NCBI GenBank assembly: GCA_000165345.1
Contig: CM000434.1
Span: forward strand, 1,056,001-1,120,000
Direction: 5' to 3'
Length of the DNA stretch: 64,000 bases
Shown here: positions 12,290 through 52,800 of the stretch, piece by piece
Numbering within the stretch: position 1 is the first letter of the stretch
How the letters are laid out: each line of letters begins with the position of its first letter
Notes under the pieces: model-generated
The model's input: the letters and a program-made list of their open reading frames with translations, nothing else
Told to the model about the DNA's origin: nothing
Database searches by the model: none
Program-made: the position numbers and the translations under genes

Positions 12290-12362
12290 GCACTCGTGGC
12301 GCAATGGATAGCGCGTAGCCCTCCTAAGGCTGAGGTTGAGGGTTCGAGTCCCTCCGAGTGCG
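12290..12362 (+). tRNA. tRNA-Arg (anticodon CCU), 73 nt, no intron
   Basis: The sequence folds as a cloverleaf: acceptor stem GCACTCG/CGAGTGC, D-stem GCGC/GCGC with loop AATGGATA, and anticodon stem TAGCC/GGCTG with loop CTCCTAA. The anticodon CCT is at 12323-12325. The variable loop is AGGTT, the T-stem GAGGG/CCCTC with loop TTCGAGT, and the discriminator G. The internal A box (TGGCGCAATGG) and B box (GGTTCGAGTCC) are present, and a T-run (ttattttttc) follows within 10 nt as a Pol III terminator. The overlapping 101-aa track ORF on the minus strand is spurious. Confidence 0.85.
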
Positions 12363-12799
12363 CTTTCTTTATTTTTTCTCTTTGCCAGAACTTTTTTGAA
12401 TTTAATTAGGAAAAGTTGTAAAGGCGGTTTTTTTTTAAATAAAATTAACTTCGGGTGCATAAGACCATCGAAATTTGGACTAGTATAATATATACCAGAT
12501 CCGTTGGCATATTTTTTCCTCCCAAAGCCATCTTCTTGCAAAATTGTCTCGAATGACCACACTACTAAGCTTATACAGTGTAAGAAAGGCAATGAGTAGA
12601 GAAGCTCACTAAGAATAGTAATATAAAGCAGAAAATTGCAGTTAATACGAAAGGGTCATACAATATTATTACGAAAGAGAAGATACAAAGTAAAGAGAGA
12701 GTTTAGATTCTTTCTTATATAAGCAAAATATTTAATCAAGGATATCTTTAAATTTATATATATATTTATTTATTTATAAATATCTTTTAATTAAAGAAA

Positions 12800-19166: not shown

Positions 19167-21279
19167 ATGTCTCAGAGTTCAACACTTTGGAACCAATCCT
19201 ACTCTAGGGAGTTAATAATGGATCATTCGGAAGGGATTGATTGGATTAGTGGCGATGGTTGCCTGGAGAATATTAAAGATTCACATTTTGTGGATTATAG
19301 TGATCCAAATCAAGTTAATATGGAAGATCCTTTAGGAAATAACTTTTATGATTGTACTGATCTTGATGATAGCTTCCATAATTACTTGATGAAGGGTTTA
19401 CTGGGTGAGAATGTTGAAGGTGGCTCAGGCTCTAATAATTTGAATGATGTTTCCTCCGTGAACAGCATCAGAGGTCAAAGTAATGTTGGCGTTACTATTA
19501 GTCACAACAATGATGCCATTTGCCACAACATTGACCACAGAATTGATAGCGTTGGTATTGGAGTGGGATCTCTTGGGGGGGAAGTTGGAGGAGCTTTAGG
19601 GGTGGGTTTAGGAGGAGTGGGAGGAGGAATAGAGATAGGTTTGGGAGTACAAGTAGGAGAGGTGAGAAATCAAGGGGAGAAGGAGTTTGAGAACATAAGC
19701 TGCAGTTACACGGGGAACTCACATTCCCATCAATTGGAGCCACCAAATGAAGATCTCGTAGAAGATCAGAGTAACTGTTACAGGATATCAGCAACTTCAA
19801 ACAATTTGGGTATTTCCAGTAATCATGGACTGTTATTGGGGGCATCTTCCTCTAGCAAAGTCTTGGGAGCTACGCCATCAGCTCAAATATCATCTTCTTT
19901 GTCATCCTCTTCATCATCATCCTCTTCTTCGTTAGCTTCATCTTCATCGTCATCATCTTCATCACCATCATTAACATTGAATTCAGGGCTTCCACCAATA
20001 TCACTACCACCACGAGCTATACCTCCTATAAACTTATCTCAGAGTTTGATGACTCCCACTACATCTGCATCCTCATCATCAGTTAGCCCAATTTCCTTTT
20101 CTCCAAATTCAATGCAATCAGGCCAAAAGCTGATGGGATTTGATCATTCATTCCCAATGGAAAATACACAAAAGAGAGTTCGAATAGAGCCGGAAGAAAG
20201 GATTAGAATGGGTATTTTCGACGATAGTTTAGTGGAATCTGATGTCAAGTTTGCAGATCACCAGATTGTTGAGTTGGATTCAAGTAAAGGAAGAAGGTGG
20301 AGTAACAATTCAACAACTTCAACAATTTCTTCAAACTTTTCAATAAATACAAGTGATGGCGGATGTGTTAGCCATATTAATGATAGCGTAAACAATGAGA
20401 ATCTTGGATTAATGAGCCATGATTTTCAGCAAGACAAGTTTTGTAATACAGAAGATTTAGGATCCCAGAAGCCGAAAATGGCGGACCAAAGCTATGAAAT
20501 GGGAGTAATTGAAGACGAGAACTATTCAATGGGAGGCCAAATGGAGGGGGAATTTTTTATGAACTCGGATAACTACTTAACTGAAGAGGAAAAGCTCAAG
20601 TTAAGGAGGCGAGGAAGGAGGAGAAGACCAGGTAAGTTAAATATTTCTAAACAATTAACAAAGGATCTGACTCTTTATTGTTTTAAATAGGCGAAATAGA
20701 AGCTTGGAAGACTATAATACCTAGAACTACTGTGGATGAAGCTGAGCACTTTGTACAGACAAGTCAATATAGAATGAGACATGTATATAGAGATCCAAGA
20801 GCTGTGAGCTTCGTTTATAGGTAAGTTAAAGATTATGAAAATCATTCAGTATAAGGAGTTTTTTTCTCATTTGGAATCAATTATTTATAGATGTGTACAA
20901 CATGTGGATTGCCAGTATGAGATGAGGATTTACTTAATATCTCACGAAACTTGTTACGTTCAACACAGAGGTTACCATACAGAGGAGAAACAAAAGTACA
21001 AGAGGCCAGGTAAGTTAATTGTTGAAGAGAGGATTTTTCTTAAATCCTTTCTTTTTTTAATTTAGTGTGGATTTGAGTAATTATCTTTTAGGACTCCCTC
21101 AACACACTTTACCGCTCATTGATGAGCTAATAAGAAAAGGCCTTCCTCCAAAGTCAGTAATTGACCATGCAATTCAAATATATCCAGAGGTAGCCGACCA
21201 ATCAAATATTTCAGTACTTTATAGGCAGATTACGAATAGACAACAATATATTAGAAAACGCCAGAGAAATTATGTTTGA
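19167..21279 (+). CDS. Ser/Gly-rich low-complexity protein with a conserved C-terminal Cys/His domain. Four exons, about 620 aa.
   Basis: Exon 1 is 19167-20631 (ATG verified), ending ...RRRGRRRRP then the first base of a Gly codon. Three introns follow, all starting GTAAGTTA: 20632-20690, 20821-20890 and 21010-21091. Exon 2 is 20691-20820, exon 3 is 20891-21009 and exon 4 is 21092-21279. The phases 1/2/1 close the frame. The spliced C-terminus reads GEIEAWKTIIPRTTVDEAEHFVQTSQYRMRHVYRDPRAVSFVYRCVQHVDCQYEMRIYLISHETCYVQHRGYHTEEKQKYKRPGGLPQHTLPLIDELIRKGLPPKSVIDHAIQIYPEVADQSNISVLYRQITNRQQYIRKRQRNYV*. The track ORFs 20835-21065 and 21067-21279 are intron read-throughs or fragments of this gene. Exon 1 contains (TCN)n poly-Ser and (GGN)n Gly tracts. 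Confidence 0.5.
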
Positions 21280-21759: not shown

Positions 21760-24745
21760 ATGGGAATTTTTGGTTTAAAGACGTATGGGTCTGTTTTGGG
21801 TCCAAGAGGAGTGACCCTCAAGGGTTTGGTGGTTTACCTATTAGTAGCATTGGCATTAATGGGAGAGCGAGTCAGGGTAAGTTGAGTTTTTACCATTCAC
21901 ATTTGTTTCCCTCTTCCATTAATAGAGGTTGGGAAAGGTCTGGTGTGAAATTGGAGTAATAATTATTCTTGATTAACTTTTATTTCATAACTTTTTCTTA
22001 ATTAACTATCTAATGAATAATTAGTCAGAGAATATTCACGTTTTTTCCTTCGAGGATGATGAGCATGAGGCTGGAAACCAATACGTCTTTGATAACTTGA
22101 CAAACTCAAATTCAGAACATGAGTTGAACTCCCCCTTTGGAATAGTTCCTTCAAATGAACATCATACCGGCATTGATGCGCATGTGGACAATTCTGATGA
22201 ACACATTTTACAGAAATCCGAGCATAGGAGTTTGTCTGGTCTGGGTGAGGTCGGTAGTTCTAAAAAAGTTTTTGGAGAAGGGGCTACTAGAAGGGAGGTT
22301 GGAGATGAAGTGGAAAGCATCTATAGTGAAGAAGACGGGGGAATATATATGGATACGGAGCAGGATGAGGAAATTGGGGATATAGAGAGTTTTTTAAGCT
22401 TTGATAGTGAATTTGAGAAAAATGAGATGGAAGAGGGGATTATTGGCAATGCTGCTGATAAAGTGAACAAAGTAGCAGTTGGTTTAGATACTGCTCGGGA
22501 AGGTCAGACCGAAGACAAGCAAGAGATAGTACGTAGTACGGAAGAAGTGAGTAAAGGAAAGGCTGATATAAAAGTTAAAAAGAGGACAGGAGAGGAAACC
22601 AAAAAGGAAACTGAGGCAAAAGGAGATGCAGAAGTTGGGATTGAGGGGAAGGAGCACCACCACGTGGCTCGGGAAGCTGTTCAGCAAAAAGGTGAGGCTA
22701 AAGTAATGGGTGAGAAGAAGTCTCAGGAGAAATCCAAAGCGTCTGGGGTTAGTTCTTTGGGGAGATCGAAAAGAAAAAGTGAAGGAGAAAGTGAAGATGG
22801 CGAGGCAACAACAAATAGTAATAGTAGTGAAGAGAAGAAAAAGCCAGAAAGCGGAGTTATTGAGGACTCAGATACCTTATCTGACAAAGTTAAGATAAAG
22901 ACGGAAAATGTTCATATGAAGAAGCATATTAAAACAATTCAAACTCCTGGACAGGAACCTAAGGAGGGGAACCAAACCCAAAATACTCCATATGTTTCAG
23001 TTAGTGCAAATGACTCAGCTAATGCTAATAATTCGGTTAGTGCTAATATTAACGGTTCTATTTCTTCAGTAGTTCCAATTATGAAAGCTGAGGCAGATTT
23101 TTATACAAAAAATACCAATGAAACTTTAAATATAGGAGTTGAAAGTTCTGGGAAGGTTGCTGACGTTCCTAGCGAAGCAACAGCCTTAGGAGAGGGATAC
23201 GTAGGTTCTGGAAAGAATATCACAACAGAAGCAACGAGACAGGGGCCAAGCACTAATATCAAGCAAAAGTCACTAAAGAAAGCAGCGTCTTCAAGCAGAG
23301 ATAAAAGCAAAAGAAAATCAAGCAGGACGGATGATTCTGCTCTAAAAAAGGTTTCTAGAGAATCAAATAAAGGGGAGGGCCTGGAATCTCCTAAATCTGC
23401 TCGTCTAGGATCTAGTAGAGGAGATAATCCCAAGACGACTAAACATAAAAAGCATAAACAATACAAAGATTTGAAATTTAATTCAAAAGAAATAGAAGAT
23501 TCTGAAGCACGTTTCAAAGACAGGTACCGATGTTTGAATGTAAATACAAATATTTTTGAGTCCCTAAGAGTTTTAGATCCTTCTTCTAACCAGACTTGCC
23601 TAACAAATTCAGAGTTTGATGGTTTGAATGTCACGAGAGGTCTCACAGAAGATGATAAAGAACAGAGAAAGGAGTCTAAGCAGAGATTGGGGCCTTTAAA
23701 GAAGATGGAAACAGAAAAGAAAAATTGCTCTTTTTATTCTATTTGGCAGGAATTTACCGATCAAGTGAATAATATGTGTACTCAATTAGAACATAAAGTC
23801 GATTCCAGTTCAAAAAAACCATTAATTGCGGATCTACAGACATCCATTGCCAACATAACCAGTAACTTAAACAATACTGCTACTACTTCTACTACAACGG
23901 TAGCGTTTAATATTACAGAAATTACGACTGAAAATATATCTGGGATAAGAGAAAAGAAAGAAATCAACTCCTCTTCAACTGAAGAGAAGCCAAAAATATT
24001 GAATCTTGCTGGTACTGAAAGAATGGTGGAAGTTCCACAAAATTATTCTAATCCAATAAAGTCAGATGGTGCAAAAAGTGAGAGGAGTAAGATGAATTCC
24101 AAAAGTAAAGTAAGCTGGACAAGAATTCTTCAGAAGATTAGAATATTGAATATTCCTGATATTTATATTCAAGCTACTGCTAAAAAGATACTCAAGTTCA
24201 ATATATATATTTACAGGATATATACGGATAAATACAAGAGAAAAATAATTAAAAGAGTACAGGGAATTCTGAGAAATTTAAAAATAGTAAATAAGTCTCA
24301 AATGATCAAAGATAGGCACTTTTTGGGAGCTTACACGATCTTTGGATCACTATTAACTGCATTATTACTCCTATCTATTGCAACATTTCACGGAAGACAA
24401 TATGCTGAGAAATCTGAAGATATACTGGTTGAGGCAGAAACTATTAAAAAGCTTGGATTTGTGGGAGGTAAAATTAAGATGATAAGCAGCCATCTATCAA
24501 ATTCAGATACAGGAATTGAAAGAGTGGTATTCTCTGATGATCCAAGCTCTATCTGTCAAATGATCTTGAAAAGTAAATCAATTGTAGCCCAGAATCCCAG
24601 TAATATTGATTATACTGAAGAGATAACCGATTCTAAAGACTTAAATTCTATTTTGAACTTAACTACTAGATTGGAAGAGAATAATGAGATTTTACTCCAT
24701 CTCTCAAATGGATTAGCTAAATGTGCTCAGTCTCTTACAATATAA
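21760..24745 (+). CDS. Highly charged (K/E/S-rich) single-pass membrane glycoprotein. Three-exon model; the core ORF 22025-24745 is certain, the two small 5' exons are tentative.
   Basis: The track ORF at 22097 starts on TTG. The frame is open upstream to a TAG at 22022-22024 with no ATG, and the first in-frame ATG is 84 codons in, so an upstream exon is needed. A small spliced ORF supplies it. Exon 1 is 21760-21876 (ATG; MGIFGLKTYGSVLGPRGVTLKGLVVYLLVALALMGERVR, hydrophobic, signal or anchor-like). Intron 1 is 21877-21925 (GTAAGTTG...ATTAATAG, good pyrimidine tract). Exon 2 is 21926-21955 (RLGKVWCEIG). Intron 2 is 21956-22024 (GTAATA...AATTAG, weaker). Exon 3 runs 22025-24745 in the same frame as the track ORF. 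The body is acidic/basic low complexity with many NxS/T sites (NITSNLNNTATTSTTTVAFNITEITTENISG). A transmembrane segment LGAYTIFGSLLTALLLLSIATF lies about 120 aa from the C-terminus. Confidence 0.4.
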
Positions 24746-29907: not shown

Positions 29908-32900
29908 TTATGATCTTGAAGAAAACCTTCTCCAAATTATGACAATTCCATCCGCATCCCCACTTGCTAACAGTGTTGATGATGCATTCACTGCAGTACT
30001 TATTACTGGAGCGGAGTGACCAACTAAAGCTAAATTCTCTTTTTCGCATGAATCATTATTTAACTGGAAAACCCTTACAGAACAATCCTCTGCTGCAGAT
30101 GCTACCCATAGACCATTCCTAGATGAAAAACATGACCTCAAAGGCATCAATGAATGAGGATTCGGAATCCTGAACCTCACCTGTAAAACTACATGAGGAA
30201 CATTCGAAATATCTATCTGACCAGTTGGAGCTTGCAACCGAATATCTATTATAGTTATTGTTGAATCTGCTGCATTTACCACTAATACCGGTAATAATGA
30301 AGAAAGCCCGCCAAATCCCGCGCCGATAGCACTATTTGCATGCGTTTTTCTGACATTAGAATAGTCAGATGATCCATGGACATAAAGCATATTTGTTATA
30401 GCTCTGCTACAAACCTGCATTCCCCTCTTATCAGTAAATCTGAAATCAGTTTCTGTTGAAGTTCTTGATGAAGACTTTGCTGCTATGTTTACAAGAACAT
30501 AAATCCTTCCTTCTTTGCATGCAGCAAAGCAGTAAATTCCAGTACTATCAAAACATAAAGCTCTGATAGTTGAATCAGTTTTAATCTTTTGAGCAACTCC
30601 GACATCTACATTCACAATTCTAAGCAGTGGCTTAGAAGATGAGACAATAAATAGAGATGGTAGAAATGGTAAGTAGGAGCCAACAAGTACTGGAGAGTTG
30701 TCTGAAAATAAGCTAATAGCATGACCAGTAGCTGTTAGGAATCTCCTTACTGTCATATCAATGGATGTAGATAAGAATTCAGATTCATCTGGAGAAAGAG
30801 CTAAAGAGGTGATTGCTCTATTATGCGCTTTTCTTGAATATGCTTCTTCTACTCTTCCGGACCATTCCAAAGATGAATTTTCATCAGCAATACTGTCTTC
30901 TAAACGAGTCTTGTAGCAATAATATGCGTGAATTACCCCATTCTTTCTTGCAACCAAAAGCATTGTATGTGGTTCAGTTGGTATATCTCTACAAAATACA
31001 ATATGAGTAACTGAACTATTCTGATCATCTTTAATATTAATAACTGGCCCAATTCCTCCCTGTTTTTCAACTTGAGTAATGTTAGCTGCTTCTTCCAAGT
31101 CTAATGTTGGAATTAGAAATTCATTTCTATCTAATGTTATTTTAGGTACCGGGAATTTTGGAATTCTAAGACCAAATGCTCTAATTCCATCATTAAATTT
31201 GGAAAAGAGAGAATTATTTAACTGTTTTTGTTGCATTGTATTTCTTTCTAGTGTTAAAGCCAGTTCATCTTTATCAACCATTTCACCTCTGAGGGTGTTA
31301 TTTTCAGCTCCAAATGGGATTCCTTCAGTTTGTTGTGTAATTTTTATATCCAAATGATTTCTGGTATTAATAATCCCCACAATTGATGAAATTAAAGACG
31401 AAATTGAATCTGACTCTATTGATATTATATCCAAATCGCTGGAGATCTTTCTTACTTGTTCAATATCAACCTCTATTTTTGCTGATTCGTGTATTACTCT
31501 ATATAGACTTCCAAACAAAACTACCTTACATCCACTTTCTATAGCTTTTCTAAATATCAAAAAATCATGATTACCAGTACCTTCTTCTAAAGCTTTGAAA
31601 GATTCAATGTTTGCCACGTCATAAACAAAAATTGCAACTCTTGTTCTTGTTAGAAAGCTTTCAATTTGTTGACGTGATTCATCTTCTTCTAAGGCTGTAA
31701 TACTCATTATATTTAATGGCCATCTCTCTCCAACACTTGATTCCCTAACTCTATGGTTAGAACCTTCTGGACCATTGTAAGCATTTTTTAGATATTCTTG
31801 TGAAGAGATGACATGGGCTCCTGGGATATTTGATAACTCAATTGTGAATACCTGTAAGTTATTTTCGTCAACTGAACCTGCGCCAATTTCATCCATAAAC
31901 TTCTTAAGAAGTTGTTTGTCACCACTCCCTGAAGATCCTGCTAACAAAAGTCCGATCTGTCTATCCTGGTAATTTAATACAATTGAGCGAGAATCACGAG
32001 GAAACAATATTTCTGGAATCGATTCCAACAATCCTAACTTTGAAAAAGGATATGAAGATAACCTCAAAAGTCTTTTTATTATTTCTTGTTGTTTTGAAAT
32101 CTCTAATCCGTTCGCAACCTCCTTCTCTTCTCTTTGACTCTGGATTTGAGATGATACCCCCAATATCGAATTACTGCTATCAATATTTTGTGAAACCTGA
32201 TTCTTATTCTGATTTTGGTCCTGATTATGATCATGATCAATACTATCAGAAATAGTACCCAAATCAGAAACTGTTCTCTCTTCAGTCTTACGAGCCAAAA
32301 GCTCCTGATTTAGCTGTTCTCTCTCATCCTTTAGAGAATTACGTTCTGATAAAGCCTTATAAAGTTGGTCCTCCAAACGTGAACAATTGCCCTTTAATTT
32401 CTGAATCTCTATCAATGCCTCCTGGTATTTTGCAAATAATTCACTAAACTCATTCTTCTCCTCCTTTAACTTCTGGAACTGTCTTCTTGCAAGTTTTCCC
32501 CTCCATAATATTTGAGCCTTCAAAACACTTCCTGACAGTCGAATAAAGTATCTCCTCTGCAAATACATCCTAAATGTTGACTGAATTAAACAAACCCTTC
32601 GGATATACAATTTCTCTTCAGCTTCCTTTCTTCTCAAATATACCCTCCATCTTGATTGAATCATTTTGACACATAACTGCATGCATTTCAACTTTTGGCG
32701 CGCAACGTGTCCTCGGAAAATTGTCTGAATTTTCAAAGCAGCCTTTTCTTTAAGTAATAACTTAAATCTTCGTCTGGAAAGAACTCCTTTCCAGATACTC
32801 TGGATGGTAATAATGGCTTTAATAGCCTTCGAGTATTGATTGCGACACAAAATCATCCTCCACAGACTCTGAATCTTTGTAGAAGCTGTATCTCTGACAC

Positions 32901-35601
32901 GTACTCTAAGTTGTTCAAGATCTCGAAAAGCTTCAATCTTCAGAAACACTCTAGTAAGTCCAACTGCCCACTGAGTGGTTTGTTCATGTTTTGAAATCAA
33001 CCCAGAAGAATTTAAATTCTCCATTAACTCAATGATCTGACTCTTTCTTGTATTATTTGATTCAGACAAAGAAGTTACATTCTTTGTTTCTTGAACTTGA
33101 CCTGAATTTAATATACTTCTACACCATCTACCATATTCATCTCTAGACTTACTAATAGAAAGTTGTCCACATGGTGAAAAAAGTATCATATAATCAAGTA
33201 GAAATTCAAAATGTGGAAATCTTACAGGATATCCAGCACGACTAACTTGGATAGCTTGTAGTACTCCACCATACTTGAGTTGTTCTGAGACAGAAATTCT
33301 ATCAAATTCGTCTGGGGAGTTGTTACTATTTGGTTTGATGCATCTGATAAAATGAGGATTTGTTTGCTTAATAGTTGAAATTAGTTTGTTTAACTGATTT
33401 CTAAAAGATGATCCAAGAGTTTGTTGACGTTTTAACTTGGTGTTTGATTCAGAATCTAAGATATGATCTGAGAATTTAGCTTTTATCAAATCTGAAACCC
33501 AAGGATTCTCTGAGCTTGATAAAACTTCAGTGGAATAATGAGAAAGTTGGTCTTTATTTTTCTCTATAAAGTTATCAACACAGTATGAAACAGGGCCTGC
33601 ATAGTGGACTACCACAAAGTTGTTTGGCTTCTTTTTAACAATATCAAACCTGGTATTCTTTCCGCTATATTCCTTGACTAATTTATTCAATAATCCAATA
33701 TTTGATCCCTGTGGAACAAAACACTCTTCATCTATTGCTGGAAGAATTCCCAAAACTGGCTTTTGTTGTTGTAATAATTGAACACAATCTCCATTATCTG
33801 GAAAATCAATTGGATCCCAACTAATATCCTCTTGTATATACAAGTCCTGCTCAATGTTGAAAATATAATCATTAAATATTTGTTGTAATCTTTCATTTGC
33901 AAAGTTAATACAAAGCTGCTCAAAACTGTTATTTGGAAAGCATTCAAAACCAAAAATATCCAGAATCCCACAATACAAATCCTTTTTATCCTTTTCTTGG
34001 TGAGCATCATTAGTTTCATTTTCTCTTGCTCTAGATATCTGAGTGTTTACTAAATGCAAGATATAGTCAAATACTAGAGAATATAATGCTTTTGAAACTG
34101 CATCTTTTGTTGTTTCAGCTTCTTGTACGCTTAAATGTTTCATTATTTCTCCTTCTCTTAACTGAATCTTTCGGCAAGTTAATAGACGAACAATATCATC
34201 CTTAGGTATAGAAAGTAATGAAGAAACAATTTCCAAGTCTTGGAAACATGATTCATGAGGAATTGATGACTCTCCTTCATTTTCTATAAATGTAATATTA
34301 CCCAAGAACATGACTGCTTTAATTATTTTGATGATATTATAAAGTTGGTCATTCGTAATTCCCATAGTTCTTACAGCATATAATGTCCTTTCAAATTGGT
34401 GGAAGTCAGTTTCCTGGCATTCTGAACCCTCCAAGTACTTAAAATTCTTCTCTGAAACTATGTGAGAGAGATCTATTTCCATAGGATTCGAGAATAATTG
34501 CTCCCTTAATTGTGCCATATGAGGATTCAAGACAACATTCTCTGAATTTTTACGCGAAAATAATATGGACTCTGTATTATGTGAAGGGAATCTGTATATC
34601 AGATTCTCTTCATGAGAAGATCCTTGAGAAATAATATGCTTAGCAGCAGAGCAAAGCTGATAAAATATGTGAAAATTCCTCTCTCCTTTTTGTTGATGGC
34701 ATACTCTGACTTTTTCAAGCAAATAAGTATTTATACAGGCACTGCTAATGCACATTGAACTTGAATCAGACTCCAAAGTTGAATTAGAAGTCAACTCAGA
34801 GAACTGAATTTCGATAAACTTTCCAAACCTTGAGGAATTGTTATTTCTCAAAGTTTGAGAATTTCCAAAAGCTTCTAAAAGAGGATTGCTCTGAATAATC
34901 TGATCCTCAACAAATGAATATCTTTTCTCATTTCCAGTACCTGAATCACCAATACCAGAGCTAACACTATTGTTAGATGATCCAACAACTGTCAAAAATT
35001 GAAGAACAAACTTGGTTGTTTCAGTCTTTCCAGCTCCAGATTCCCCACTTATTAATATTGTTTGAGACTTCTTTTGAGTACAAACTCCAGTATATGCCTT
35101 ATTAGTAACACTAAACACATGTGGAATATCGGAATTACTCTTCAGCCTAAACTTCTGAATCATTTCCATAGAATAGAAACCTTCCAAAGTTCTATATGGA
35201 TTTACTGCAATTAAAATTGGGCCGGTAAATGTGTAAATCTTATCAAGATCAAACCTAGAATTAATTGCATGCAAAATTGAAGGCTGATGGAGATGAGTAA
35301 GTTCGCAAAGATCGTCCGGAGTAACCACACCACAATCTGAAAGTTGCTCAGCTGCTCTAATATGAAGCTGCCCCCCCGCCATGTTAGATCCAACCTCCAA
35401 AGGAAGTTTAAAAACAACTTCCTCTGAAACCTCCTCAAGTGTTAACTCATCAACCACATTTGAAACTTTGACTGAAATCTGTGAATCATCCACTCTAGAG
35501 ACAACGCCAGGCCTCCAAACCTCTTTGGGACATGGAATCCATACAAGTGACCCTGGCCCAAAAAGGCCAGTCCCTGAGTCCAGATCTCTGGAGTTCTTCA
35601 T
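29908..35601 (-). CDS. Unconventional myosin heavy chain with a C-terminal WD40 beta-propeller tail (apicomplexan MyoF / class XXII-like), about 1897 aa
   Basis: The track start at 35637 is TTG. The first ATG is 12 codons in, at 35601-35599 (MKNSRDLDSGTGLFGPGSLVWIPCP...). The motor has P-loop GESGAGKTETTK, switch regions and an SH3-like N-terminus. At least five IQ motifs follow (IQSLWR..., IQSIWKGVLSRRRF..., IQTIFRGHVARQKL..., IQSRWRVYLRRK..., IQSTFRMYLQRRYF), then a coiled coil. The tail ends with WD40 repeats (LVGHSAPVISTAVNASSTLLASGDADGIVIIWR). No introns. Class assignment is by architecture only. Confidence 0.85.
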   Translation of the reverse strand: MKNSRDLDSGTGLFGPGSLVWIPCPKEVWRPGVVSRVDDSQISVKVSNVVDELTLEEVSEEVVFKLPLEVGSNMAGGQLHIRAAEQLSDCGVVTPDDLCELTHLHQPSILHAINSRFDLDKIYTFTGPILIAVNPYRTLEGFYSMEMIQKFRLKSNSDIPHVFSVTNKAYTGVCTQKKSQTILISGESGAGKTETTKFVLQFLTVVGSSNNSVSSGIGDSGTGNEKRYSFVEDQIIQSNPLLEAFGNSQTLRNNNSSRFGKFIEIQFSELTSNSTLESDSSSMCISSACINTYLLEKVRVCHQQKGERNFHIFYQLCSAAKHIISQGSSHEENLIYRFPSHNTESILFSRKNSENVVLNPHMAQLREQLFSNPMEIDLSHIVSEKNFKYLEGSECQETDFHQFERTLYAVRTMGITNDQLYNIIKIIKAVMFLGNITFIENEGESSIPHESCFQDLEIVSSLLSIPKDDIVRLLTCRKIQLREGEIMKHLSVQEAETTKDAVSKALYSLVFDYILHLVNTQISRARENETNDAHQEKDKKDLYCGILDIFGFECFPNNSFEQLCINFANERLQQIFNDYIFNIEQDLYIQEDISWDPIDFPDNGDCVQLLQQQKPVLGILPAIDEECFVPQGSNIGLLNKLVKEYSGKNTRFDIVKKKPNNFVVVHYAGPVSYCVDNFIEKNKDQLSHYSTEVLSSSENPWVSDLIKAKFSDHILDSESNTKLKRQQTLGSSFRNQLNKLISTIKQTNPHFIRCIKPNSNNSPDEFDRISVSEQLKYGGVLQAIQVSRAGYPVRFPHFEFLLDYMILFSPCGQLSISKSRDEYGRWCRSILNSGQVQETKNVTSLSESNNTRKSQIIELMENLNSSGLISKHEQTTQWAVGLTRVFLKIEAFRDLEQLRVRVRDTASTKIQSLWRMILCRNQYSKAIKAIITIQSIWKGVLSRRRFKLLLKEKAALKIQTIFRGHVARQKLKCMQLCVKMIQSRWRVYLRRKEAEEKLYIRRVCLIQSTFRMYLQRRYFIRLSGSVLKAQILWRGKLARRQFQKLKEEKNEFSELFAKYQEALIEIQKLKGNCSRLEDQLYKALSERNSLKDEREQLNQELLARKTEERTVSDLGTISDSIDHDHNQDQNQNKNQVSQNIDSSNSILGVSSQIQSQREEKEVANGLEISKQQEIIKRLLRLSSYPFSKLGLLESIPEILFPRDSRSIVLNYQDRQIGLLLAGSSGSGDKQLLKKFMDEIGAGSVDENNLQVFTIELSNIPGAHVISSQEYLKNAYNGPEGSNHRVRESSVGERWPLNIMSITALEEDESRQQIESFLTRTRVAIFVYDVANIESFKALEEGTGNHDFLIFRKAIESGCKVVLFGSLYRVIHESAKIEVDIEQVRKISSDLDIISIESDSISSLISSIVGIINTRNHLDIKITQQTEGIPFGAENNTLRGEMVDKDELALTLERNTMQQKQLNNSLFSKFNDGIRAFGLRIPKFPVPKITLDRNEFLIPTLDLEEAANITQVEKQGGIGPVINIKDDQNSSVTHIVFCRDIPTEPHTMLLVARKNGVIHAYYCYKTRLEDSIADENSSLEWSGRVEEAYSRKAHNRAITSLALSPDESEFLSTSIDMTVRRFLTATGHAISLFSDNSPVLVGSYLPFLPSLFIVSSSKPLLRIVNVDVGVAQKIKTDSTIRALCFDSTGIYCFAACKEGRIYVLVNIAAKSSSRTSTETDFRFTDKRGMQVCSRAITNMLYVHGSSDYSNVRKTHANSAIGAGFGGLSSLLPVLVVNAADSTITIIDIRLQAPTGQIDISNVPHVVLQVRFRIPNPHSLMPLRSCFSSRNGLWVASAAEDCSVRVFQLNNDSCEKENLALVGHSAPVISTAVNASSTLLASGDADGIVIIWRRFSSRS

Positions 35602-35956
35602 AAGTACTTCCAGAGAATTGTGGCAATAATCCTTCAAAAAGAGCCTTGAATTTTTTACTTTCTCTATTTGAAGCTTTAAACTTTAATAAAAAAACATTAA
35701 ATTTTTCAATGCATTTAGACCGGGGTTAATTGATCTCCAATTTTGGCGCCTTTACGATTTTCAGCATCCTTTAACCGGGAAAAGGTCTCCATACATGTTT
35801 TTTGCTATAAAATGCAAATTCAAGATATCCGGGATAGAATGAGGAGCATGGGGTTCGTTCGACTGAAATGCATAATTTTTTCTTATTTAGGGAACTGTTA
35901 ATTTGTCATCCCATATTCTGGGACTTTTATTTTATTCAATTTTAATAGTACAAGGA

Positions 35957-37402
35957 ATGAATAACTTCAAAGTTTCCAGTTTCGTATGCAGAAGTTTTGA
36001 TGAGCTTTACTCCGCTATTCAGACGGAAAATATTGAATACTTGAACTACTCATTTTGTGATACTTTTGGATCCCTTCATCATATTACAATTAGTTCAAAT
36101 TCGTTTAAATCTGGTAAAGATATACAAAAAGGAATTGCATTCGATTCTAGCTCAGTAAGAGGGATGCAGTTTGGAGACTTCTCGGATATGATCGTCGTTC
36201 CAGACTTTGAGAAGGTTTGGATTGACCCATTTTTTGACAGGAAAACCCTCCATGTTGCTTGTTTTGTATTATTCCATACTGGAGAACCTTCCCCTGGTTG
36301 TGTTAGATCAATCTCAAAAAGAGCTCAAGAAGCTCTTTCATTATCCGGGATTGCTGATAAATGTTTTATTGGACCAGAAATTGAATTCTTTGTATTTGAG
36401 TCTGTCAGCTATAATAACTCACCAAACCACAGCTATTTTTGTTTAGACGGCGATGAGGCTTATTGGAATTCTGGTAACAACGCAACTTTCTACCCCCATA
36501 ATAGACCAAATCTTGCAAGTAGAAGACCTCTAAAACAGGCATATTGCGCTCCTTATCCCGTAGATAGAGATTTATCATTGAGAAGTGAAATTCTTGAAGA
36601 GCTTGAGAATATTGGAGTAACAGTAGAAAAGCATCACCATGAGGTTGCAACCTGCCAACATGAAATTGGTGTTCATTGCTCAACCCTTGTTCAGTCAGCT
36701 GATATTGTTGAATCCATCAGATATCTTATAAAAGGAATTGCACATAGAAATAACAAAACTGCCACATTTATGCCAAAACCACTTGGAAATGATAATGGGA
36801 GTGGAATGCATATCAATATTTCTCTTTGGAAAAACGAAAAGAACATATTCTTTGACCCTGAATCAAGTTATTATAATTTATCCAACCAGGCTCTTTACTT
36901 CATTGGTGGAATACTCTCCCATGCAAAGGCTATTATGGCCTTTACAAATCCCACAACCAATAGTTATAAAAGACTTGCTACTGGCTATGAAACTCCAACT
37001 AAGCTTTCATATGGAGCTGGTGACAGAAGCTCTTCTATTAGAATACCTTTGTCAGGGTTTTCATGTACAAAAACCCAAAGAATCGAATTTAGAATCCCTG
37101 ACTCATCTGCATGCCCTCATTTGGCTTTTTCCGCCATTTTGTGTGCTGGAATTGATGGTATTTTGCATAAAATACACCCAGCTGCTTACTTGAATACCAT
37201 TAAGTCTCAAAGTAACGAATATAATTTGCCAAAATCACTTACTGAGGCTCTTCAAAACCTTGAAGAAGATTACGAATTCCTTATCAAAGATGGAGTTTTT
37301 TCGCATGAGTTTATTCTCAACTACATTAAGCTTAAACGCGACGAGGTTGTTCTAGTTGAGTCTTTTCCAACCCCCAAAGAGTTTGAACTGTATTATGACT
37401 GA
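35957..37402 (+). CDS. Glutamine synthetase, prokaryote-type (type I, GlnA-like), 482 aa
   Basis: The track start at 35903 is TTG, encoding a spurious hydrophobic leader. The real ATG is at 35957 (MNNFKVSSF...). GSI signature blocks match E. coli GlnA colinearly: FDSSSVRGMQFGDFSDMIVVPD...IDPFF, GPEIEFFVFE, KPLGNDNGSGMHINISLW, and NSYKRLATGYETPTKLSYGAGDRSSSIRIP. No introns. Confidence 0.85.
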   Translation: MNNFKVSSFVCRSFDELYSAIQTENIEYLNYSFCDTFGSLHHITISSNSFKSGKDIQKGIAFDSSSVRGMQFGDFSDMIVVPDFEKVWIDPFFDRKTLHVACFVLFHTGEPSPGCVRSISKRAQEALSLSGIADKCFIGPEIEFFVFESVSYNNSPNHSYFCLDGDEAYWNSGNNATFYPHNRPNLASRRPLKQAYCAPYPVDRDLSLRSEILEELENIGVTVEKHHHEVATCQHEIGVHCSTLVQSADIVESIRYLIKGIAHRNNKTATFMPKPLGNDNGSGMHINISLWKNEKNIFFDPESSYYNLSNQALYFIGGILSHAKAIMAFTNPTTNSYKRLATGYETPTKLSYGAGDRSSSIRIPLSGFSCTKTQRIEFRIPDSSACPHLAFSAILCAGIDGILHKIHPAAYLNTIKSQSNEYNLPKSLTEALQNLEEDYEFLIKDGVFSHEFILNYIKLKRDEVVLVESFPTPKEFELYYD

Positions 37403-37717: not shown

Positions 37718-38677
37718 ATGAGTCAACCTGGAGGTGCTGGGGGCAGTAAGACGCAAATTACAGCTGCTATATTGCAGGAGGCGTATATTCATGGTTGTCA
37801 GAACAATAACGAGCTCAGTCCTGACTCTTTGAAATCATTAGGCTGGGACAATTCTGTAATTGTACGAGTACTGAATATTTTTACCGAGAAAAGGCTTTGC
37901 TCTGTAAAAAAAAATAGGCCATCTGGATTATTAAGCTCTGTAAATAATAAAGTAGTTTTTCAATTAAGAACTGAAGAAGTCGCATGTAAACTTAATAAAC
38001 TCTCCAATGAGGAGTATCTCGTTTTTTGCTCAATAGAAGATGCAGGTAACCAAGGAATTTGGACCGCTGATATTAGAAAAAATACAGGTTTACAAACACA
38101 TGTTGTACAACGAGCAGTAAAGGTATTATGCAATGATTGGAATCTTATCCGGCCAGTTAAAAGTATCCATGTTAAGAATAGAAAAGTTTACATTTTAGCT
38201 TCCTTAGAACCTTCTAAAGAGCTTTCTGGAGGTACTTTCTACGAAAACGGAGAGTTTGATATGGCTTTTGTAGATAGTATTAAGGAAAAGATTATATCCT
38301 TTATAGACAGCAAAAGAAAGTGTACCCTCCAAGAAATACTTGAATTCATCAATTATGATATGAATATGGATTCTTCTTCCGCAAGAAAGAATATATCACT
38401 CTCGGATCTACAATCCGTAATAAATATGCTTATTGTTGAACTTAAAATTATATGTGTCAAAGGAGGAAATTCTAATTCAAATGAAAATTTTTTCATGTGC
38501 TTAAAATGGCCAGAATCCCTCTCTGTTACTCCAGAGGCAGAAGATGTTCCTTGTTTGGCTTGCCCTGTTTTTGAAACATGCTCTTGGTCATTTGAATCTC
38601 AAATACTTCCCTGCCCTCAATTATGTAAATATATTGATTACTCGCTAAAAAATTGCAAACCTTTACTGCCAGAATAA
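37718..38677 (+). CDS. RPC34: DNA-directed RNA polymerase III subunit RPC6 (Rpc34/POLR3F), 319 aa
   Basis: ATG at 37718. The central winged-helix block EEYLVFCSIEDAGNQGIWTADIRKNTGLQTHVVQRAVKVLCNDWNLIRPVKSIHVKNRKVYILASLEPSKELSGGTFY aligns with human POLR3F (EKLVYQIIEDAGNKGIWSRDIRYKSNL...KKVYMLYNLQPDRSVTGGAWY). The C-terminal cysteine cluster VPCLACPVFETCSWSFESQILPCPQLC aligns with the Fe-S Cys cluster APCGLCPVFDDC...NC. Confidence 0.75.
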   Translation: MSQPGGAGGSKTQITAAILQEAYIHGCQNNNELSPDSLKSLGWDNSVIVRVLNIFTEKRLCSVKKNRPSGLLSSVNNKVVFQLRTEEVACKLNKLSNEEYLVFCSIEDAGNQGIWTADIRKNTGLQTHVVQRAVKVLCNDWNLIRPVKSIHVKNRKVYILASLEPSKELSGGTFYENGEFDMAFVDSIKEKIISFIDSKRKCTLQEILEFINYDMNMDSSSARKNISLSDLQSVINMLIVELKIICVKGGNSNSNENFFMCLKWPESLSVTPEAEDVPCLACPVFETCSWSFESQILPCPQLCKYIDYSLKNCKPLLPE

Positions 38678-44962: not shown

Positions 44963-45841
44963 TTATTGATTTGAGTCTTGCTTACTAGTGGTTATTTCAG
45001 CATCGTTAGAGAGTTGTTCAAAACTGAAGTCTTGATTTTCAACAAGAGTTTTTTCTACTGGGTTATTTGGTTGGTCTTGCTTATTAGTTGGACTGGTTTC
45101 AAGCTCTTGTTCGGAAACTTGCTCTAACATTGTATCTGAGATTGAAGCATTATCTAAATTAGAATCAGAAGAATTAATCAATTTTGAAATAGCCTGTACG
45201 CTAATAGAGATTGATTCTTTTTCTGTTTCTGGAATGGCCTCTCTTTCCAAAGGTGATTCTTGGCCTTTATTCTGAATAAGCGTTTGAATTATTTCTTCTT
45301 GTGAAGATATTTCAGAGTTTCTTTCAACTTCAGAATTCAAGTTTAAAGTGAAATCCGTATTGCCAAGTTCTGACCCAGAAAAATTTTTAATAGAATCCTC
45401 TTTTTTAGAATCTTGGCTTAAAGAAGTATTAATTACTTCAACTTTTAATATATTTAATTCATTATCTTTTGAATCAAATTTTCCAAACTTTATATTATTA
45501 TTTTCATTTAATCCAGAATTTAAATTATCATTATTTGATTCATTTAAGTTGGGTTTTTTATTTGGCTTAGATTTCTTTTTGTTCTTTTTACCAGTTTTAT
45601 TAGTTTTCTTTGCATTACTAGGATTCAAAAGTTTGAGTTCTTTTTTATATCTAATTAGTGAAAGTTTGTTTTCTACATCCACCAATTCTGTATTATCGAT
45701 AATAATCTAATTATTCAAAGTTATTGATTAATATAATAAGAATTAGTTTATATATAATAAACTTACATTAAATGGGCAAACTTCATCTGGGGATGAATCA
45801 CAAACTTGTTTAATAAACTTTTTCCTTAATGAAGATGCCAT
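44963..45841 (-). CDS. Lys/Asn/Ser-rich low-complexity protein, two-exon model, about 273 aa
   Basis: The track ORF at 44963-45685 starts on TTG. Its frame is open upstream to a TAG at 45709-45707 with no ATG, and that TAG is the acceptor AG. Proposed exon 1 is 45841-45767 (ATG; MASSLRKKFIKQVCDSSPDEVCPFN). The intron is 45766-45707 (GTAAGTTTATTATAT...GAATAATTAG, 60 nt). Exon 2 is 45706-44963 (IIIDNTELVDVENKLSLIRYKKELKLLNPSNAKKTNKTGKKNKKKSKPNKK...). There is no recognisable domain. The 5' exon sits 20 bp from the stop codon of the upstream GT34 gene. Confidence 0.45.
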
Positions 45842-51084: not shown

Positions 51085-52800
51085 GCAAGTACCTTTACCG
51101 TTTATTTTAATTCTATTACAACCACTACTGCTGCCATTAATATTAATACTATTAGCCTCAACAATCCATTGAATGGTACTACAACTCCTCATAAAAAAAG
51201 TCGCTAATAAAGAAGCAAAAAACTACTACTACGTACAAATTTTTGTAAAGTTATCTACTCATTAGCTACTTCCCCACTCCAATGAACATGTAAACGGTAT
51301 ATTTGAATGTAAATCTAACAGAAATTGTCATTCAAATTATCGTTGCCCGATTGTTAATTTGTATTTCAACTAAATTGTGAACGCCATTTTGGCCTCGAAA
51401 TATATAAAAAAAAAAGGTACCTAATATTCTGTTTAAATAAATGAAAGAAACAGGTACCAACTACCACCATCTCTAGTGGAATTCGTCTTCCCACACGTCA
51501 TTTAGCCTGCCCCAAATCATTGTATATTCTAGGAAAGTCTGAGATATGGCTATTTTTTCTCTTCCTCCTCTTCTCTCCCCCTTCCCCTGTAAATATTGAC
51601 GCTACTATAACTACTTTACTACTATTATTACTATCTTCTCTCTCCTAATCTACCTAAAATTATGCCTATTATCAAATTCTAACTAGCTTTAAAATTATAA
51701 ATTGTATGGTTGCTTCCACTACTCGGCGCCACTAATCACGAAATACATTAATGATTCAGTTCATATGGATCTTCTTACTCCCTCCTCGTTTTTGTATTGT
51801 TTTTATGAAGAATCCTTAATAACTTTTTGTCAATAACCATTATGAATTGATTTGATTTATTATTATTATGAATACCAAGCTTAAGCTCGGCATTTGAAAG
51901 AAAAAATACTTGTATACTGAAAAATCTATTTCCATAGAGAATAGTTCAATTATAATAAAAAAGAGAAATCCCAATATAAATATCTCTTGTTAAAATCTCC
52001 TTTCCATTAAAGAAAAACTTTAGGGTTGAAGAAATATTTAACCAATTTTGAAGTAAATGATTATTAGATCTAACTTATTCCATAAATATTGCAAACAATG
52101 ATGGCCACTAATTCTTATATTCTTTTCCATCAATATATTGATTCTCATACTTTAAGAATTTAAATAAATAATTATAGGGGAAAAAAATAATGGCCAAAAT
52201 TCCATAAATTCTGTCAAACTGAAAGTTATTAATTAAACATTATCCAAAAGTCTCTCACTACTCTGTTATTATAATGGTCCATTAACCAAAATGCTGATTA
52301 TTTCTTGTTATAATCCTTAAATTTCTCAAAATATGTAATTTATAGATTTCCATTTACATTACCCATATACCTGTAAAATAATATTATTCACCCAAAACTA
52401 ATAAATATAATCTTATAATTATCTGAAATATTATCTACCAAAGTTTCATGTTGATATTATTACGATTATTTCGCCTATCCATTATTTATTTAATTACAAT
52501 TTTAGCATTTATGATTATTAAAATGAGACATTTGACATGCATAGGAAGGCGCCATCTTTTTGCTGCATGATTGAAGGTTGATTTTTAATATAACCCAGTA
52601 TCGAAATAAATTGGAGTAGCCAAGATAGGAAATCTTGAGGCTTTAACATAATTACTATAAATAGCAATTATTAATTTTATAAATTTTGTTTTTTAATCTC
52701 AAGGAATTGATTTTTATTCTTTGATTTTGAGCTGCGACATTAAAATATTTTGTTTTGTGGTAAATTTGGAAATCTAACAATTGGATTTCCAGAAAATTCT

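What the first reader, a model, noticed from the sequence alone, without database searches (positions are those of the whole stretch)
35957..37402. Prokaryote-type (type I) glutamine synthetase in a eukaryotic nuclear context
The enzyme carries full GSI signatures (DGSS-type block, GPExEFF, KP.G.DNGSGMH.H.SLW, NSYKRL...NRS.SIRIP). Most eukaryotes use GSII. It is intronless, sits between ordinary eukaryotic genes (myosin, RPC34) and has host-like codon and AT composition, so it is integrated rather than contamination. This is consistent with an ancient bacterial or organellar acquisition in this lineage. The ORF track's TTG start adds a false hydrophobic leader that could be misread as a targeting peptide.
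Basis: partly seen in the sequence, partly recalled or inferred. Interest (0 to 1): 0.5.

Follow-up and report, generated by a model that had tools for sequence, protein, structure and literature searches.

The report
Known bacterial-type glutamine synthetase of Cryptosporidium

Summary
Window 35957-37402 (+) is an uninterrupted 481-codon gene for a type I glutamine synthetase. It scores 485 bits against TIGR00653 GlnA (cut-off 429) and only 39.7 bits against GlnII (cut-off 500). The protein is identical to C. parvum CAD98273.1/EAK90048.1 (cgd6_4570), so the window is C. parvum chromosome 6.

Huang et al. 2004 list this accession as a eubacterial transfer found in all apicomplexans examined. 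Two 2023 papers on Plasmodium GS place the C. parvum protein among prokaryote-type GS-I and report that it is expressed.

My own tests add the following:
- The GSI-beta insertion is present.
- 16 of 17 catalytic, metal and substrate residues are conserved. The exception is H271N.
- The adenylylation tyrosine (E. coli Tyr397) is missing.
- The N-terminus is only about 10 residues longer than in bacteria, so there is no targeting peptide. The TTG leader is an artefact of ORF calling.
- Codon usage matches the host genome, dN/dS is 0.075, and gene order is conserved across the genus.
- The protein groups with gregarine and haemosporidian GS, which points to one acquisition before these apicomplexan lineages diverged.

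The bacterial donor is unresolved; there is only a weak cyanobacterial signal. Interest is low.

The parts
35957..37402 (+). Complete intronless CDS (481 codons plus stop) of type I glutamine synthetase. Identical to C. parvum CAD98273.1/EAK90048.1 (cgd6_4570).
36029..36271 (+). N-terminal beta-grasp domain (Gln-synt_N, residues 25-105). It carries the ammonium-site residues D63 and S66, equivalent to E. coli D50 and S53.
36299..37393 (+). Catalytic domain (Gln-synt_C, residues 115-479). It has both metal sites: E143, E229, E236 and E141, H285, E377. It also has Y196, N280, G281, R339, E345, R357, R362 and R379. Position 287 is N, where E. coli has H271.
36383..36544 (+). Segment E143-Y196, which contains the GSI-beta-specific insertion (...DGDEAYWNSG...NLASRR...). 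It is 54 residues long. The equivalent segment is 49 in E. coli, 49-55 in cyanobacteria, 18-36 in GSI-alpha-type sequences and 73-107 in Haemosporidia.
37178..37222 (+). Residues 408-422 (PAAYLNTIKSQSNEY), the shortened loop where bacterial GSI-beta carries the adenylylated tyrosine (E. coli DKNLY397DLPPEE). The tyrosine is absent.
35903..35956 (+). In-frame TTG-initiated extension (hydrophobic stretch ILGLLFYSILI). It is an artefact of bacterial-code ORF calling and not part of the protein. An in-frame TAG at 35888-35890 closes the frame upstream.
35742..35749 (+). E2F-like motif TTTGGCGC in the divergent myosin/GS intergenic region, about 215 bp upstream of the ATG. A similar motif sits at a similar distance in C. 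meleagridis and C. canis, and GGCGCC at -227 in C. andersoni. It is a candidate promoter element; function is inferred only.
29908..35637 (-). Upstream neighbour, transcribed divergently: a myosin heavy chain with IQ motifs and a C-terminal WD40 propeller. The ORF is given as listed; the real ATG is probably at about 35601.
37718..38677 (+). Downstream neighbour: RNA polymerase III subunit RPC34/RPC6. Identical to C. parvum EAK90049.1.

Best explanation
This is cgd6_4570, the single-exon nuclear gene for the type I (GlnA-like, beta-subtype architecture) glutamine synthetase of Cryptosporidium parvum, on chromosome 6.

**Inferred mechanism.** The enzyme most likely works as a cytosolic homododecamer like bacterial GSI and Plasmodium GS. 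Two divalent metals and ATP phosphorylate glutamate to gamma-glutamyl phosphate, and ammonia then attacks it to give glutamine. From general knowledge of the parasite's metabolism, which I did not test here, the glutamine would feed the amidotransferases and the reaction would also dispose of ammonia.

**Regulation.** The bacterial on/off switch, adenylylation of Tyr397 by GlnE, cannot operate because the tyrosine is gone. Control has presumably moved to eukaryotic transcription. A conserved E2F-like upstream motif is a candidate element for that.

**Origin.** The gene was acquired from a bacterium, or from a bacterium-derived organelle, before Cryptosporidium, gregarines and Haemosporidia diverged. 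It has since been fully adapted to each host genome.

**Shown versus inferred.** Shown here: identity, family, residue conservation, loss of the tyrosine, lack of a presequence, purifying selection, synteny, and grouping with other apicomplexan GS. Inferred: catalytic activity, dodecamer, cytosolic location and metabolic role in Cryptosporidium, all by analogy with the characterised Plasmodium enzyme.
For: **Identity.** The protein is an exact match to CAD98273.1/EAK90048.1. The gene id cgd6_4570 and protein XP_627788 are cited in PMC10222646, which also reports expression at multiple life-cycle stages.

**Family.** TIGR00653 scores 485 bits against a cut-off of 429. PDB GSI-beta matches reach E 1e-104 to 1e-110 over the full length.

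**Active site.** D50, S53, E129, E131, Y179, E212, E220, N264, G265, H269, R321, E327, R339, R344, E357 and R359 (E. coli numbering) are all conserved. Only H271 is changed, to N. Plasmodium GS has the same N and is catalytically active.

**Subtype features.** The beta insertion is present. Tyr397 is absent.

**No presequence.** Similarity to bacterial GS starts at residue 12-14. The first 25 residues hold 2 basic and 3 acidic residues, with no hydrophobic core. Plasmodium GS is experimentally cytosolic and dodecameric.

**Selection.** dN/dS between C. parvum and C. meleagridis is 0.075, against 0.043 for the neighbouring RPC34.

**Residency.** Gene order is conserved as far as C. andersoni. 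GC3 follows each host genome.

**Common origin.** In ML quartet mapping, (Cryptosporidium, gregarines | cyanobacteria, other bacteria) won 59 of 60 quartets. (Cryptosporidium, Haemosporidia | ...) won 40 of 40, and (gregarines, Haemosporidia | ...) won 48 of 48. NJ bootstrap support for apicomplexan monophyly in the labelled set was 85%. H271N and loss of Tyr397 are shared by Cryptosporidium, eugregarines and Haemosporidia.

**Literature.** Huang et al. [quoted passage not shown]
Against: - No biochemical or localisation data for the Cryptosporidium enzyme were found in the papers I could search. Activity, oligomer state and location rest on homology.
- H271N changes a nucleotide-site residue that is invariant in all the bacterial sequences sampled.
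- Some metabolic reviews do not list glutamine among the amino acids Cryptosporidium makes.
- Cryptosporidium and Haemosporidia are both long branches, so their mutual attraction in quartets could be partly artefactual. The link through the shorter-branched gregarines mitigates this.
- My trees are NJ and quartet-ML with a home-made BLOSUM62-derived rate matrix, not a full ML or Bayesian analysis.
- No coccidian or piroplasm sequences were retrieved.
Confidence: 0.93

Rival explanations
1. The gene came from the cyanobacterium-derived plastid of the apicomplexan ancestor (endosymbiotic gene transfer) rather than from a free-living non-cyanobacterial donor. It would then be another plastid footprint in plastid-less Cryptosporidium. 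This rival concerns origin only, not function.
For: Apart from other apicomplexans, the best database hits are almost all cyanobacteria or Sericytochromatia. The slower-evolving gregarine-type sequences are 53-58% identical to cyanobacterial GS, against 47-53% to proteobacterial, actinobacterial and other GS. In quartet mapping, (slow gregarines, cyanobacteria | proteobacteria, other phyla) won 33 of 48 quartets, 28 of them strongly. With a GSI-alpha outgroup it won 33 of 60. In the NJ tree of all 174 sequences the apicomplexan clade sits beside cyanobacteria.
Against: Bootstrap support for apicomplexans plus cyanobacteria is only 16-30%. For Cryptosporidium itself the quartets split 21 cyanobacteria to 19 proteobacteria, and 37 of 60 went to the outgroup, which suggests long-branch effects. 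The three environmental sequences that group with the gregarine-type GS split 24 to 23. In the beta insertion the apicomplexans have NL[AG]HR, like proteobacteria, not the cyanobacterial NLGYK. Cyanobacterial GS evolves slowly and scores well against many lineages. Huang et al. 2004 filed the gene as eubacterial, non-cyanobacterial.
Confidence: 0.25
2. The protein is a GS-like pseudo-enzyme or has a different substrate, like vertebrate lengsin or the bacterial gamma-glutamyl-polyamine or -amine synthetases, rather than being a true glutamine synthetase. UniRef labels it 'Lengsin'.
For: UniRef automatic names call the Cryptosporidium proteins 'Lengsin'. H271 is replaced by N and the regulatory loop is truncated. 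PMC10222646 notes that GS-I proteins in some eukaryotes lack GS activity.
Against: All metal, glutamate and ammonium-site residues are conserved. The GlnA equivalog model is passed, while gamma-glutamylputrescine synthetase scores 188 bits against a cut-off of 650 and GlnT 202 against 470. The lengsin structure 2j9i matches at only 23.9 bits. Plasmodium GS carries the same H271N and is an active GS. Purifying selection is strong.
Confidence: 0.04
3. The gene is a bacterial contaminant or a recent, Cryptosporidium-specific horizontal transfer.
For: The protein is clearly bacterial in type. Cryptosporidium has other lineage-specific bacterial genes, according to Huang et al. 2004.
Against: The gene lies between eukaryotic genes on a 1.3 Mb chromosome in several assemblies. 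Gene order is conserved across the genus. Codon usage is host-like and GC3 tracks each host. Identity to any bacterium is at most 46%. The protein groups with gregarine and Plasmodium GS. A genomic Southern blot has been published.
Confidence: 0.01

Closest known systems
Cryptosporidium parvum glutamine synthetase cgd6_4570 (CAD98273.1 / EAK90048.1 / XP_627788), reported as a eubacterial-origin gene by Huang et al. 2004 (PMC545779)
   Same: It is the identical protein sequence. It has the same chromosome (VI) assignment and the same conclusion of bacterial origin shared with other apicomplexans.
   Different: Nothing differs; this is the same gene. My analysis adds residue-level details: loss of Tyr397, H271N, no presequence, synteny and dN/dS. 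It also finds a weak cyanobacterial signal, which that paper did not report.
Plasmodium falciparum type I glutamine synthetase (PF3D7_0922600; PDB 6pew; PMC10349072, PMC10222646)
   Same: It is a type I enzyme of the same apicomplexan lineage. All catalytic residues are conserved, it shares H271N, and it lacks the adenylylatable tyrosine. In Plasmodium the enzyme is an active, cytosolic dodecamer that is neither adenylylated nor feedback-inhibited.
   Different: The two are only about 36% identical. The PDB match is 263 bits, against about 365 bits for bacterial GS. The C. parvum protein lacks both Plasmodium-specific inserts: the E131-Y179 segment is 54 residues against 74, and there is no long insert after the Tyr397 loop. 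Its architecture therefore looks more bacterial.
Bacterial GSI-beta (GlnA of E. coli/Salmonella, M. tuberculosis, Synechocystis; PDB 1f52, 2bvc, 3ng0)
   Same: It has the same two-domain layout and length, 43-46% identity, the beta-subtype insertion, and all metal and substrate ligands.
   Different: The adenylylation tyrosine is missing and the loop is shortened. H271 is N. The gene is nuclear and eukaryotic, with host codon usage and no glnA-ntrBC or PII context.
Eukaryotic GSII (the usual eukaryotic glutamine synthetase) and vertebrate lengsin
   Same: They belong to the same superfamily, and GSII catalyses the same reaction.
   Different: GSII matches are marginal: 39.7 bits to GlnII and E of about 1e-5 to GSII structures. 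Lengsin scores 23.9 bits. The gene is not a member of either group.

Membership tests
Type I glutamine synthetase (GlnA, TIGR00653) | Gln-synt_N beta-grasp domain followed by the Gln-synt_C catalytic domain, about 470 aa | tested here: met
   Pfam PF03951 (E 6.6e-23) and PF00120 (E 6.3e-106). The protein is 481 aa.
Type I glutamine synthetase (GlnA, TIGR00653) | Score above the curated equivalog cut-off | tested here: met
   485 bits against a cut-off of 429.15, with full-length match 4-462 of 462.
Type I glutamine synthetase (GlnA, TIGR00653) | Two metal sites (E131/E212/E220 and E129/H269/E357) plus substrate residues D50, S53, Y179, R321, E327, R339, R344, R359 | tested here: met
   All are conserved in the alignment with E. 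coli GlnA. Only H271 is changed, to N.
Type I glutamine synthetase (GlnA, TIGR00653) | Homododecamer of two stacked hexameric rings, and measurable GS activity | not testable with these tools
   Inferred from 43-46% identity to dodecameric GSI structures and from the Plasmodium enzyme.
GSI-beta subtype | Insertion of about 25 residues between E131 and Y179, absent from GSI-alpha | tested here: met
   The segment is 54 residues in C. parvum, 49 in E. coli and 18-36 in alpha-type sequences. The W-N motif is present.
GSI-beta subtype | Adenylylatable tyrosine (E. coli Tyr397) in the ...NLYDLPPEE... loop | tested here: not met
   The loop is shortened and the tyrosine absent in C. parvum. Other Cryptosporidium species have S, I, F or Q at that position; eugregarines and Haemosporidia have F. 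The protein therefore has beta-type architecture but not beta-type regulation.
GSI-beta subtype | Partner regulators GlnE, GlnD and PII in the genome | not testable with these tools
   None is encoded in the 64 kb window. They are reported absent from Plasmodium. The whole Cryptosporidium genome was not searched here.
GSII (typical eukaryotic GS) | Match to GlnII/GSII models and decameric GSII structures | tested here: not met
   NF041605 scores 39.7 bits against a cut-off of 500. GSII PDB chains score 24-28 bits, E of about 1e-5.
GSIII / GlnT and gamma-glutamyl-amine synthetases | Score above the family cut-offs | tested here: not met
   TIGR03105 scores 201.6 against 469.6. NF045547 scores 187.9 against 650.
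Plasmodium-type GSI (PMC10349072) | Two lineage-specific peptide inserts (PfGS 174-196 and 443-480) | tested here: not met
   C. parvum has neither insert. It shares only H271N and the missing tyrosine.
Apicomplexan GSI clade (single ancient acquisition) | Groups with other apicomplexan GS to the exclusion of bacteria | tested here: met
   Quartet ML gave 59/60, 40/40 and 48/48. NJ bootstrap was 85% in the labelled set. Coccidia and piroplasms were not sampled here; they are reported in PMC10222646.

The most novel reading that the evidence does not exclude
The apicomplexan GSI, including this Cryptosporidium copy, descends from the cyanobacterial GlnA of the ancestral plastid lineage. That would make it one more relic of a lost plastid in a parasite that has none. 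Along the branch leading to Cryptosporidium, eugregarines and Haemosporidia, the enzyme was also freed from bacterial control: it lost Tyr397 and gained H271N.
Probability: 0.2. Interest if true: 0.35.

Novelty: already known. Interest (0 to 1): 0.1.

Why it matters
The gene is a textbook example of a bacterial gene fixed in a eukaryotic parasite. Because humans use GSII, it is a plausible selective drug target, and GS-I inhibitors such as arsinothricin, methionine sulfoximine and phosphinothricin already act on the Plasmodium orthologue. All of this has been published, so the finding adds no new biology.

Three details from this analysis are modestly useful. First, the Cryptosporidium enzyme keeps a near-bacterial architecture without the Plasmodium inserts. 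Second, it has lost the adenylylation tyrosine and shares an H271N change with eugregarines and Haemosporidia. Third, the bacterial donor remains unresolved, with only a weak cyanobacterial signal.

Tried and rejected
- **NJ trees.** I ran bootstrapped NJ on 174 sequences and on reduced sets, with gamma and Scoredist distances. They resolve the Cryptosporidium genus and, in the labelled set, the apicomplexan clade. They do not resolve the bacterial sister group. In the full sets my monophyly test scored zero because the unlabelled eukaryote-like representative P0143 was counted as bacterial; I did not rerun it.
- **Quartet likelihood mapping.** I used a BLOSUM62-derived rate matrix. It gives clear support for apicomplexan unity. 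The donor result is ambiguous, and with a GSI-alpha outgroup Cryptosporidium is pulled to the outgroup, which looks like long-branch attraction.
- **Representative library.** It carries no names. One cluster look-up named only one of ten proteins (Hepatocystis).
- **Coccidian and piroplasm GS.** The word-indexed searches did not return Toxoplasma, Eimeria or Babesia GS. For those I rely on the literature.
- **Environmental relatives.** The contigs of P0031, P0291 and P0143 were too short or too poorly annotated to identify the organisms.
- **Plasmid tblastn.** I used it only to obtain named bacterial GlnA sequences.
- **dN/dS with C. canis.** It could not be computed, because synonymous sites are saturated by a GC3 shift from 0.30 to 0.64.
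- **Rejected readings.** I considered and rejected contamination, recent transfer, GSII, GSIII, lengsin, and a targeting peptide from the TTG leader.
- **Not run.** I judged structure prediction unnecessary, given E of about 1e-110 to solved GSI structures.
Full report
**What is there**

An open reading frame runs from 35903 to 37402 on the + strand. Its first ATG is at 35957, and an in-frame TAG at 35888-35890 closes the frame just upstream. The 481-residue product from the ATG has a Gln-synt_N beta-grasp domain (residues 25-105) and a Gln-synt_C catalytic domain (115-479).

It passes the curated NCBIfam equivalog model for type I glutamate-ammonia ligase: TIGR00653 scores 485 bits against a cut-off of 429. 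The models for other branches of the superfamily all fall far below their cut-offs:

| Model | Score (bits) | Cut-off (bits) |
|---|---|---|
| GlnII | 39.7 | 500 |
| GlnT ('type III') | 202 | 470 |
| gamma-glutamylputrescine synthetase | 188 | 650 |

Against solved structures, the best matches are full-length bacterial GSI-beta dodecamers from Synechocystis (3ng0), M. tuberculosis, Salmonella and E. coli, at 352-372 bits. Next come Plasmodium falciparum GS (6pew, 263 bits) and the Bacillus and archaeal GSI-alpha enzymes (about 205-228 bits). Eukaryotic GSII chains score only 24-28 bits and lengsin 23.9 bits.

**Whose gene it is**

An exact-sequence look-up shows that the protein is identical to CAD98273.1 / EAK90048.1 / QOY41345.1 of Cryptosporidium parvum, on contigs up to 1.33 Mb. 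The downstream RPC34 protein is identical to EAK90049.1. The window is therefore C. parvum chromosome 6.

All other genes I could identify in the window are ordinary eukaryotic genes. They include an ankyrin/PHAX protein, an RRM protein, a Myb protein, a DHHC palmitoyltransferase, a UBP, a myosin, RPC34, an ankyrin protein, PIG-H, a WD40 protein, ribosomal protein S8e, SPT5, SF3a60, Rft1, SAC3 and an ABC transporter. There is also a tRNA-Arg.

**Already published**

- Huang et al. 2004 (PMC545779) list 'Glutamine synthetase CAD98273, chromosome VI, Eubacteria' among C. parvum genes of prokaryotic origin. [quoted passage not shown]
- PMC10222646 (2023) includes C. parvum XP_627788 (cgd6_4570) in a GS tree. 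It concludes that apicomplexans have prokaryotic GS-I and cites CryptoDB data showing expression at multiple life-cycle stages.
- PMC10349072 (2023) characterises the Plasmodium orthologue as an active, cytosolic, dodecameric type I enzyme that is neither adenylylated nor feedback-inhibited.

**Integration rather than contamination**

- The gene's GC (0.37), GC3 (0.295) and codon usage (RSCU correlation 0.87 with the other window genes) fall inside the range of its neighbours (0.68-0.97). E. coli glnA gives -0.24.
- The order UBP, myosin (-), GS (+), RPC34 (+), ankyrin (-), PIG-H, WD40, L26, S8e is the same in C. andersoni, a gastric species whose GS is only 62% identical. The inner part of that order is the same in C. 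meleagridis and C. canis.
- GC3 of the GS gene follows each host genome: 0.095 in C. andersoni, 0.30 in C. parvum, 0.64 in C. canis and 0.62 in Gregarina.
- dN/dS between C. parvum and C. meleagridis is 0.075. The neighbouring RPC34 gives 0.043, so the gene is under strong purifying selection.
- In Gregarina niphandrodes the orthologue is also intronless and sits among eukaryotic genes, but with different neighbours.

**Anatomy of the protein**

I aligned the protein with E. coli GlnA, taken from NC_000913. Sixteen of the 17 catalytic, metal and substrate positions checked are conserved: D50, S53, E129, E131, Y179, E212, E220, N264, G265, H269, R321, E327, R339, R344, E357 and R359. The seventeenth, H271, is asparagine.

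The segment between E131 and Y179 contains the GSI-beta-specific insertion. It is 54 residues long in C. parvum, compared with 49 in E. coli, 49-55 in cyanobacteria, 18-36 in alpha-type sequences and 73-107 in Haemosporidia.

The adenylylation tyrosine (E. coli Tyr397...DKNLYDLPPEE...) is missing. The loop is shortened in C. parvum, and the other Cryptosporidium species have S, I, F or Q at that position. Both H271N and the loss of Tyr397 are shared by Cryptosporidium, the eugregarines (Gregarina, Protomagalhaensia and an environmental relative) and Haemosporidia. They are not shared by Selenidium, the GHVS01 transcriptome sequence, most of the environmental relatives (one of which has F at the tyrosine position), or, for H271N, any bacterium sampled. 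Plasmodium GS carries the same asparagine and is catalytically active, so the change is compatible with activity.

C. parvum lacks the two Plasmodium-specific inserts.

**N-terminus**

Similarity to bacterial GS begins at residue 12-14 of the ATG-initiated protein, opposite residue 3-6 of the bacterial enzymes. Only about ten extra residues are left, with 2 basic and 3 acidic residues in the first 25 and no hydrophobic core (maximum Kyte-Doolittle 11-residue mean 0.77). There is no room for a signal or transit peptide.

The hydrophobic stretch ILGLLFYSILI (mean 2.64) exists only in the TTG-initiated extension. That extension is an artefact of bacterial-code ORF listing. The database protein starts at the ATG.

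**Phylogeny**

The nearest relatives outside the genus are gregarine sequences: Protomagalhaensia at 47%, Selenidium at 44%, Gregarina niphandrodes, and the GHVS01 transcriptome. After them come almost exclusively cyanobacterial or Sericytochromatia GlnA, at about 45%. A search started from a Hepatocystis GS returned Plasmodium species, then Selenidium and Gregarina ahead of bacteria.

Bootstrapped NJ trees give 100% support for the genus and 85% for an apicomplexan clade in the labelled data set. Support for apicomplexans plus cyanobacteria is only 16-30%.

Maximum-likelihood quartet mapping, run with my own script using a BLOSUM62-derived reversible model plus gamma rates, gave these results:

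| Quartet grouping tested | Quartets won |
|---|---|
| (Cryptosporidium, gregarines \| cyanobacteria, other bacteria) | 59 of 60 |
| (Cryptosporidium, Haemosporidia \| cyanobacteria, other bacteria) | 40 of 40 |
| (gregarines, Haemosporidia \| cyanobacteria, other bacteria) | 48 of 48 |
| (slow-evolving gregarines, cyanobacteria \| proteobacteria, other phyla) | 33 of 48 (28 strongly) |
| (Cryptosporidium, cyanobacteria \| proteobacteria, other phyla) | 21 of 48; the proteobacterial alternative won 19 |
| (Cryptosporidium, cyanobacteria \| other bacteria, GSI-alpha) | 15 of 60; 37 went to the outgroup (long-branch effect) |

I conclude that there was one acquisition before Cryptosporidium, gregarines and Haemosporidia diverged, and that the donor is unresolved. 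The cyanobacterial, hence possibly plastid-derived, reading is not excluded. I put it at about 0.2-0.25.

**How it most likely works**

By homology, the enzyme is a cytosolic GSI dodecamer that makes glutamine from glutamate, ATP and ammonia through a gamma-glutamyl phosphate intermediate. The bacterial adenylylation switch cannot operate, because the target tyrosine is gone. No PII, GlnE or Ntr genes flank the gene, unlike E. coli, where glnA sits beside glnL and glnG. Control is presumably transcriptional.

An E2F-like TTTGGCGC motif lies about 215 bp upstream, in the divergent promoter region shared with the myosin gene. It occurs 4 times in the window against 0.56 expected. It is kept at a similar distance in C. 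meleagridis and C. canis, and GGCGCC lies at -227 in C. andersoni. Its function is inferred only.

The metabolic role I propose, glutamine supply for amidotransferases and ammonia disposal, rests on general knowledge and on the discussion in PMC10222646. I did not test it here. Some reviews omit glutamine from the amino acids Cryptosporidium can make, which seems to overlook this gene.

**Verdict**

This is a correct and well-read observation of a gene that is already known and published. Novelty: already known. Interest: low.

Noticed in passing
window 36815-36817 (codon N287) and 37178-37222; related proteins P0007, P0297, P0143, P0351: H271N (E. coli numbering) and loss of the adenylylation Tyr397 occur together in Cryptosporidium, eugregarines and Haemosporidia. 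Selenidium, GHVS01 and most of the environmental relatives keep both residues, and no sampled bacterium has H271N. This is a possible shared derived character within apicomplexan GS.
   Followed up: partly
window 35742-35749; also 21638, 26215, 32694: The E2F-like octamer TTTGGCGC occurs 4 times, against 0.56 expected. The copy at 35742 and probably those at 21638 and 26215 lie in intergenic regions upstream of genes; the copy at 32694 is inside the myosin CDS. The copy upstream of GS is conserved in position in C. meleagridis and C. canis.
   Followed up: partly
L013 3001-4446 (C. canis), L002 8001-9461 (C. andersoni), compared with window 35957-37402: GC3 of the same gene ranges from 0.095 (C. 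andersoni) through 0.30 (C. parvum) to 0.64 (C. canis). This is a very large compositional divergence within one genus. Third-position identity between C. parvum and C. canis is only 41%, although the proteins are 88% identical.
   Followed up: partly
proteins P0141 (4424 aa) and P0142 (2757 aa) from the representative library: Two giant predicted proteins contain 15 and 8 GS-catalytic-domain-like stretches respectively. They were the top-scoring hits of the representative search. They could be tandem fusions, a repeat array or an assembly or gene-calling artefact.
   Followed up: no
window 12290-12363 (+): A tRNA-Arg (anticodon CCT), found by both ARAGORN and Rfam. It is the only RNA family match in the window.
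   Followed up: yes
window 7119-9296 (-), 13622-16729 (-), 19167-20690 (+), 22097-24745 (+), 44963-45685 (-), 52750-54381 (+): Six long ORFs (240-1035 aa) have no Pfam match at E<=1e-5. The one at 22097-24745 lies in a markedly purine-rich stretch (GC skew +0.23, AT skew +0.24). They are probably Cryptosporidium-specific or fast-evolving proteins.
   Followed up: no
proteins P0031, P0049, P0291 (loci L005, L006): Environmental GS sequences of 493-516 aa have short N-terminal extensions. They group with the gregarine-type GS in 46 of 48 quartets but retain H271 and Tyr397. Their contigs were too short to identify the source organisms.
   Followed up: partly
UniRef names: UniRef labels the Cryptosporidium and Gregarina GS clusters 'Lengsin', and some GenBank records call the protein 'glutamate synthetase'. 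Both names are misleading for a protein that passes the GlnA equivalog model.
   Followed up: yes
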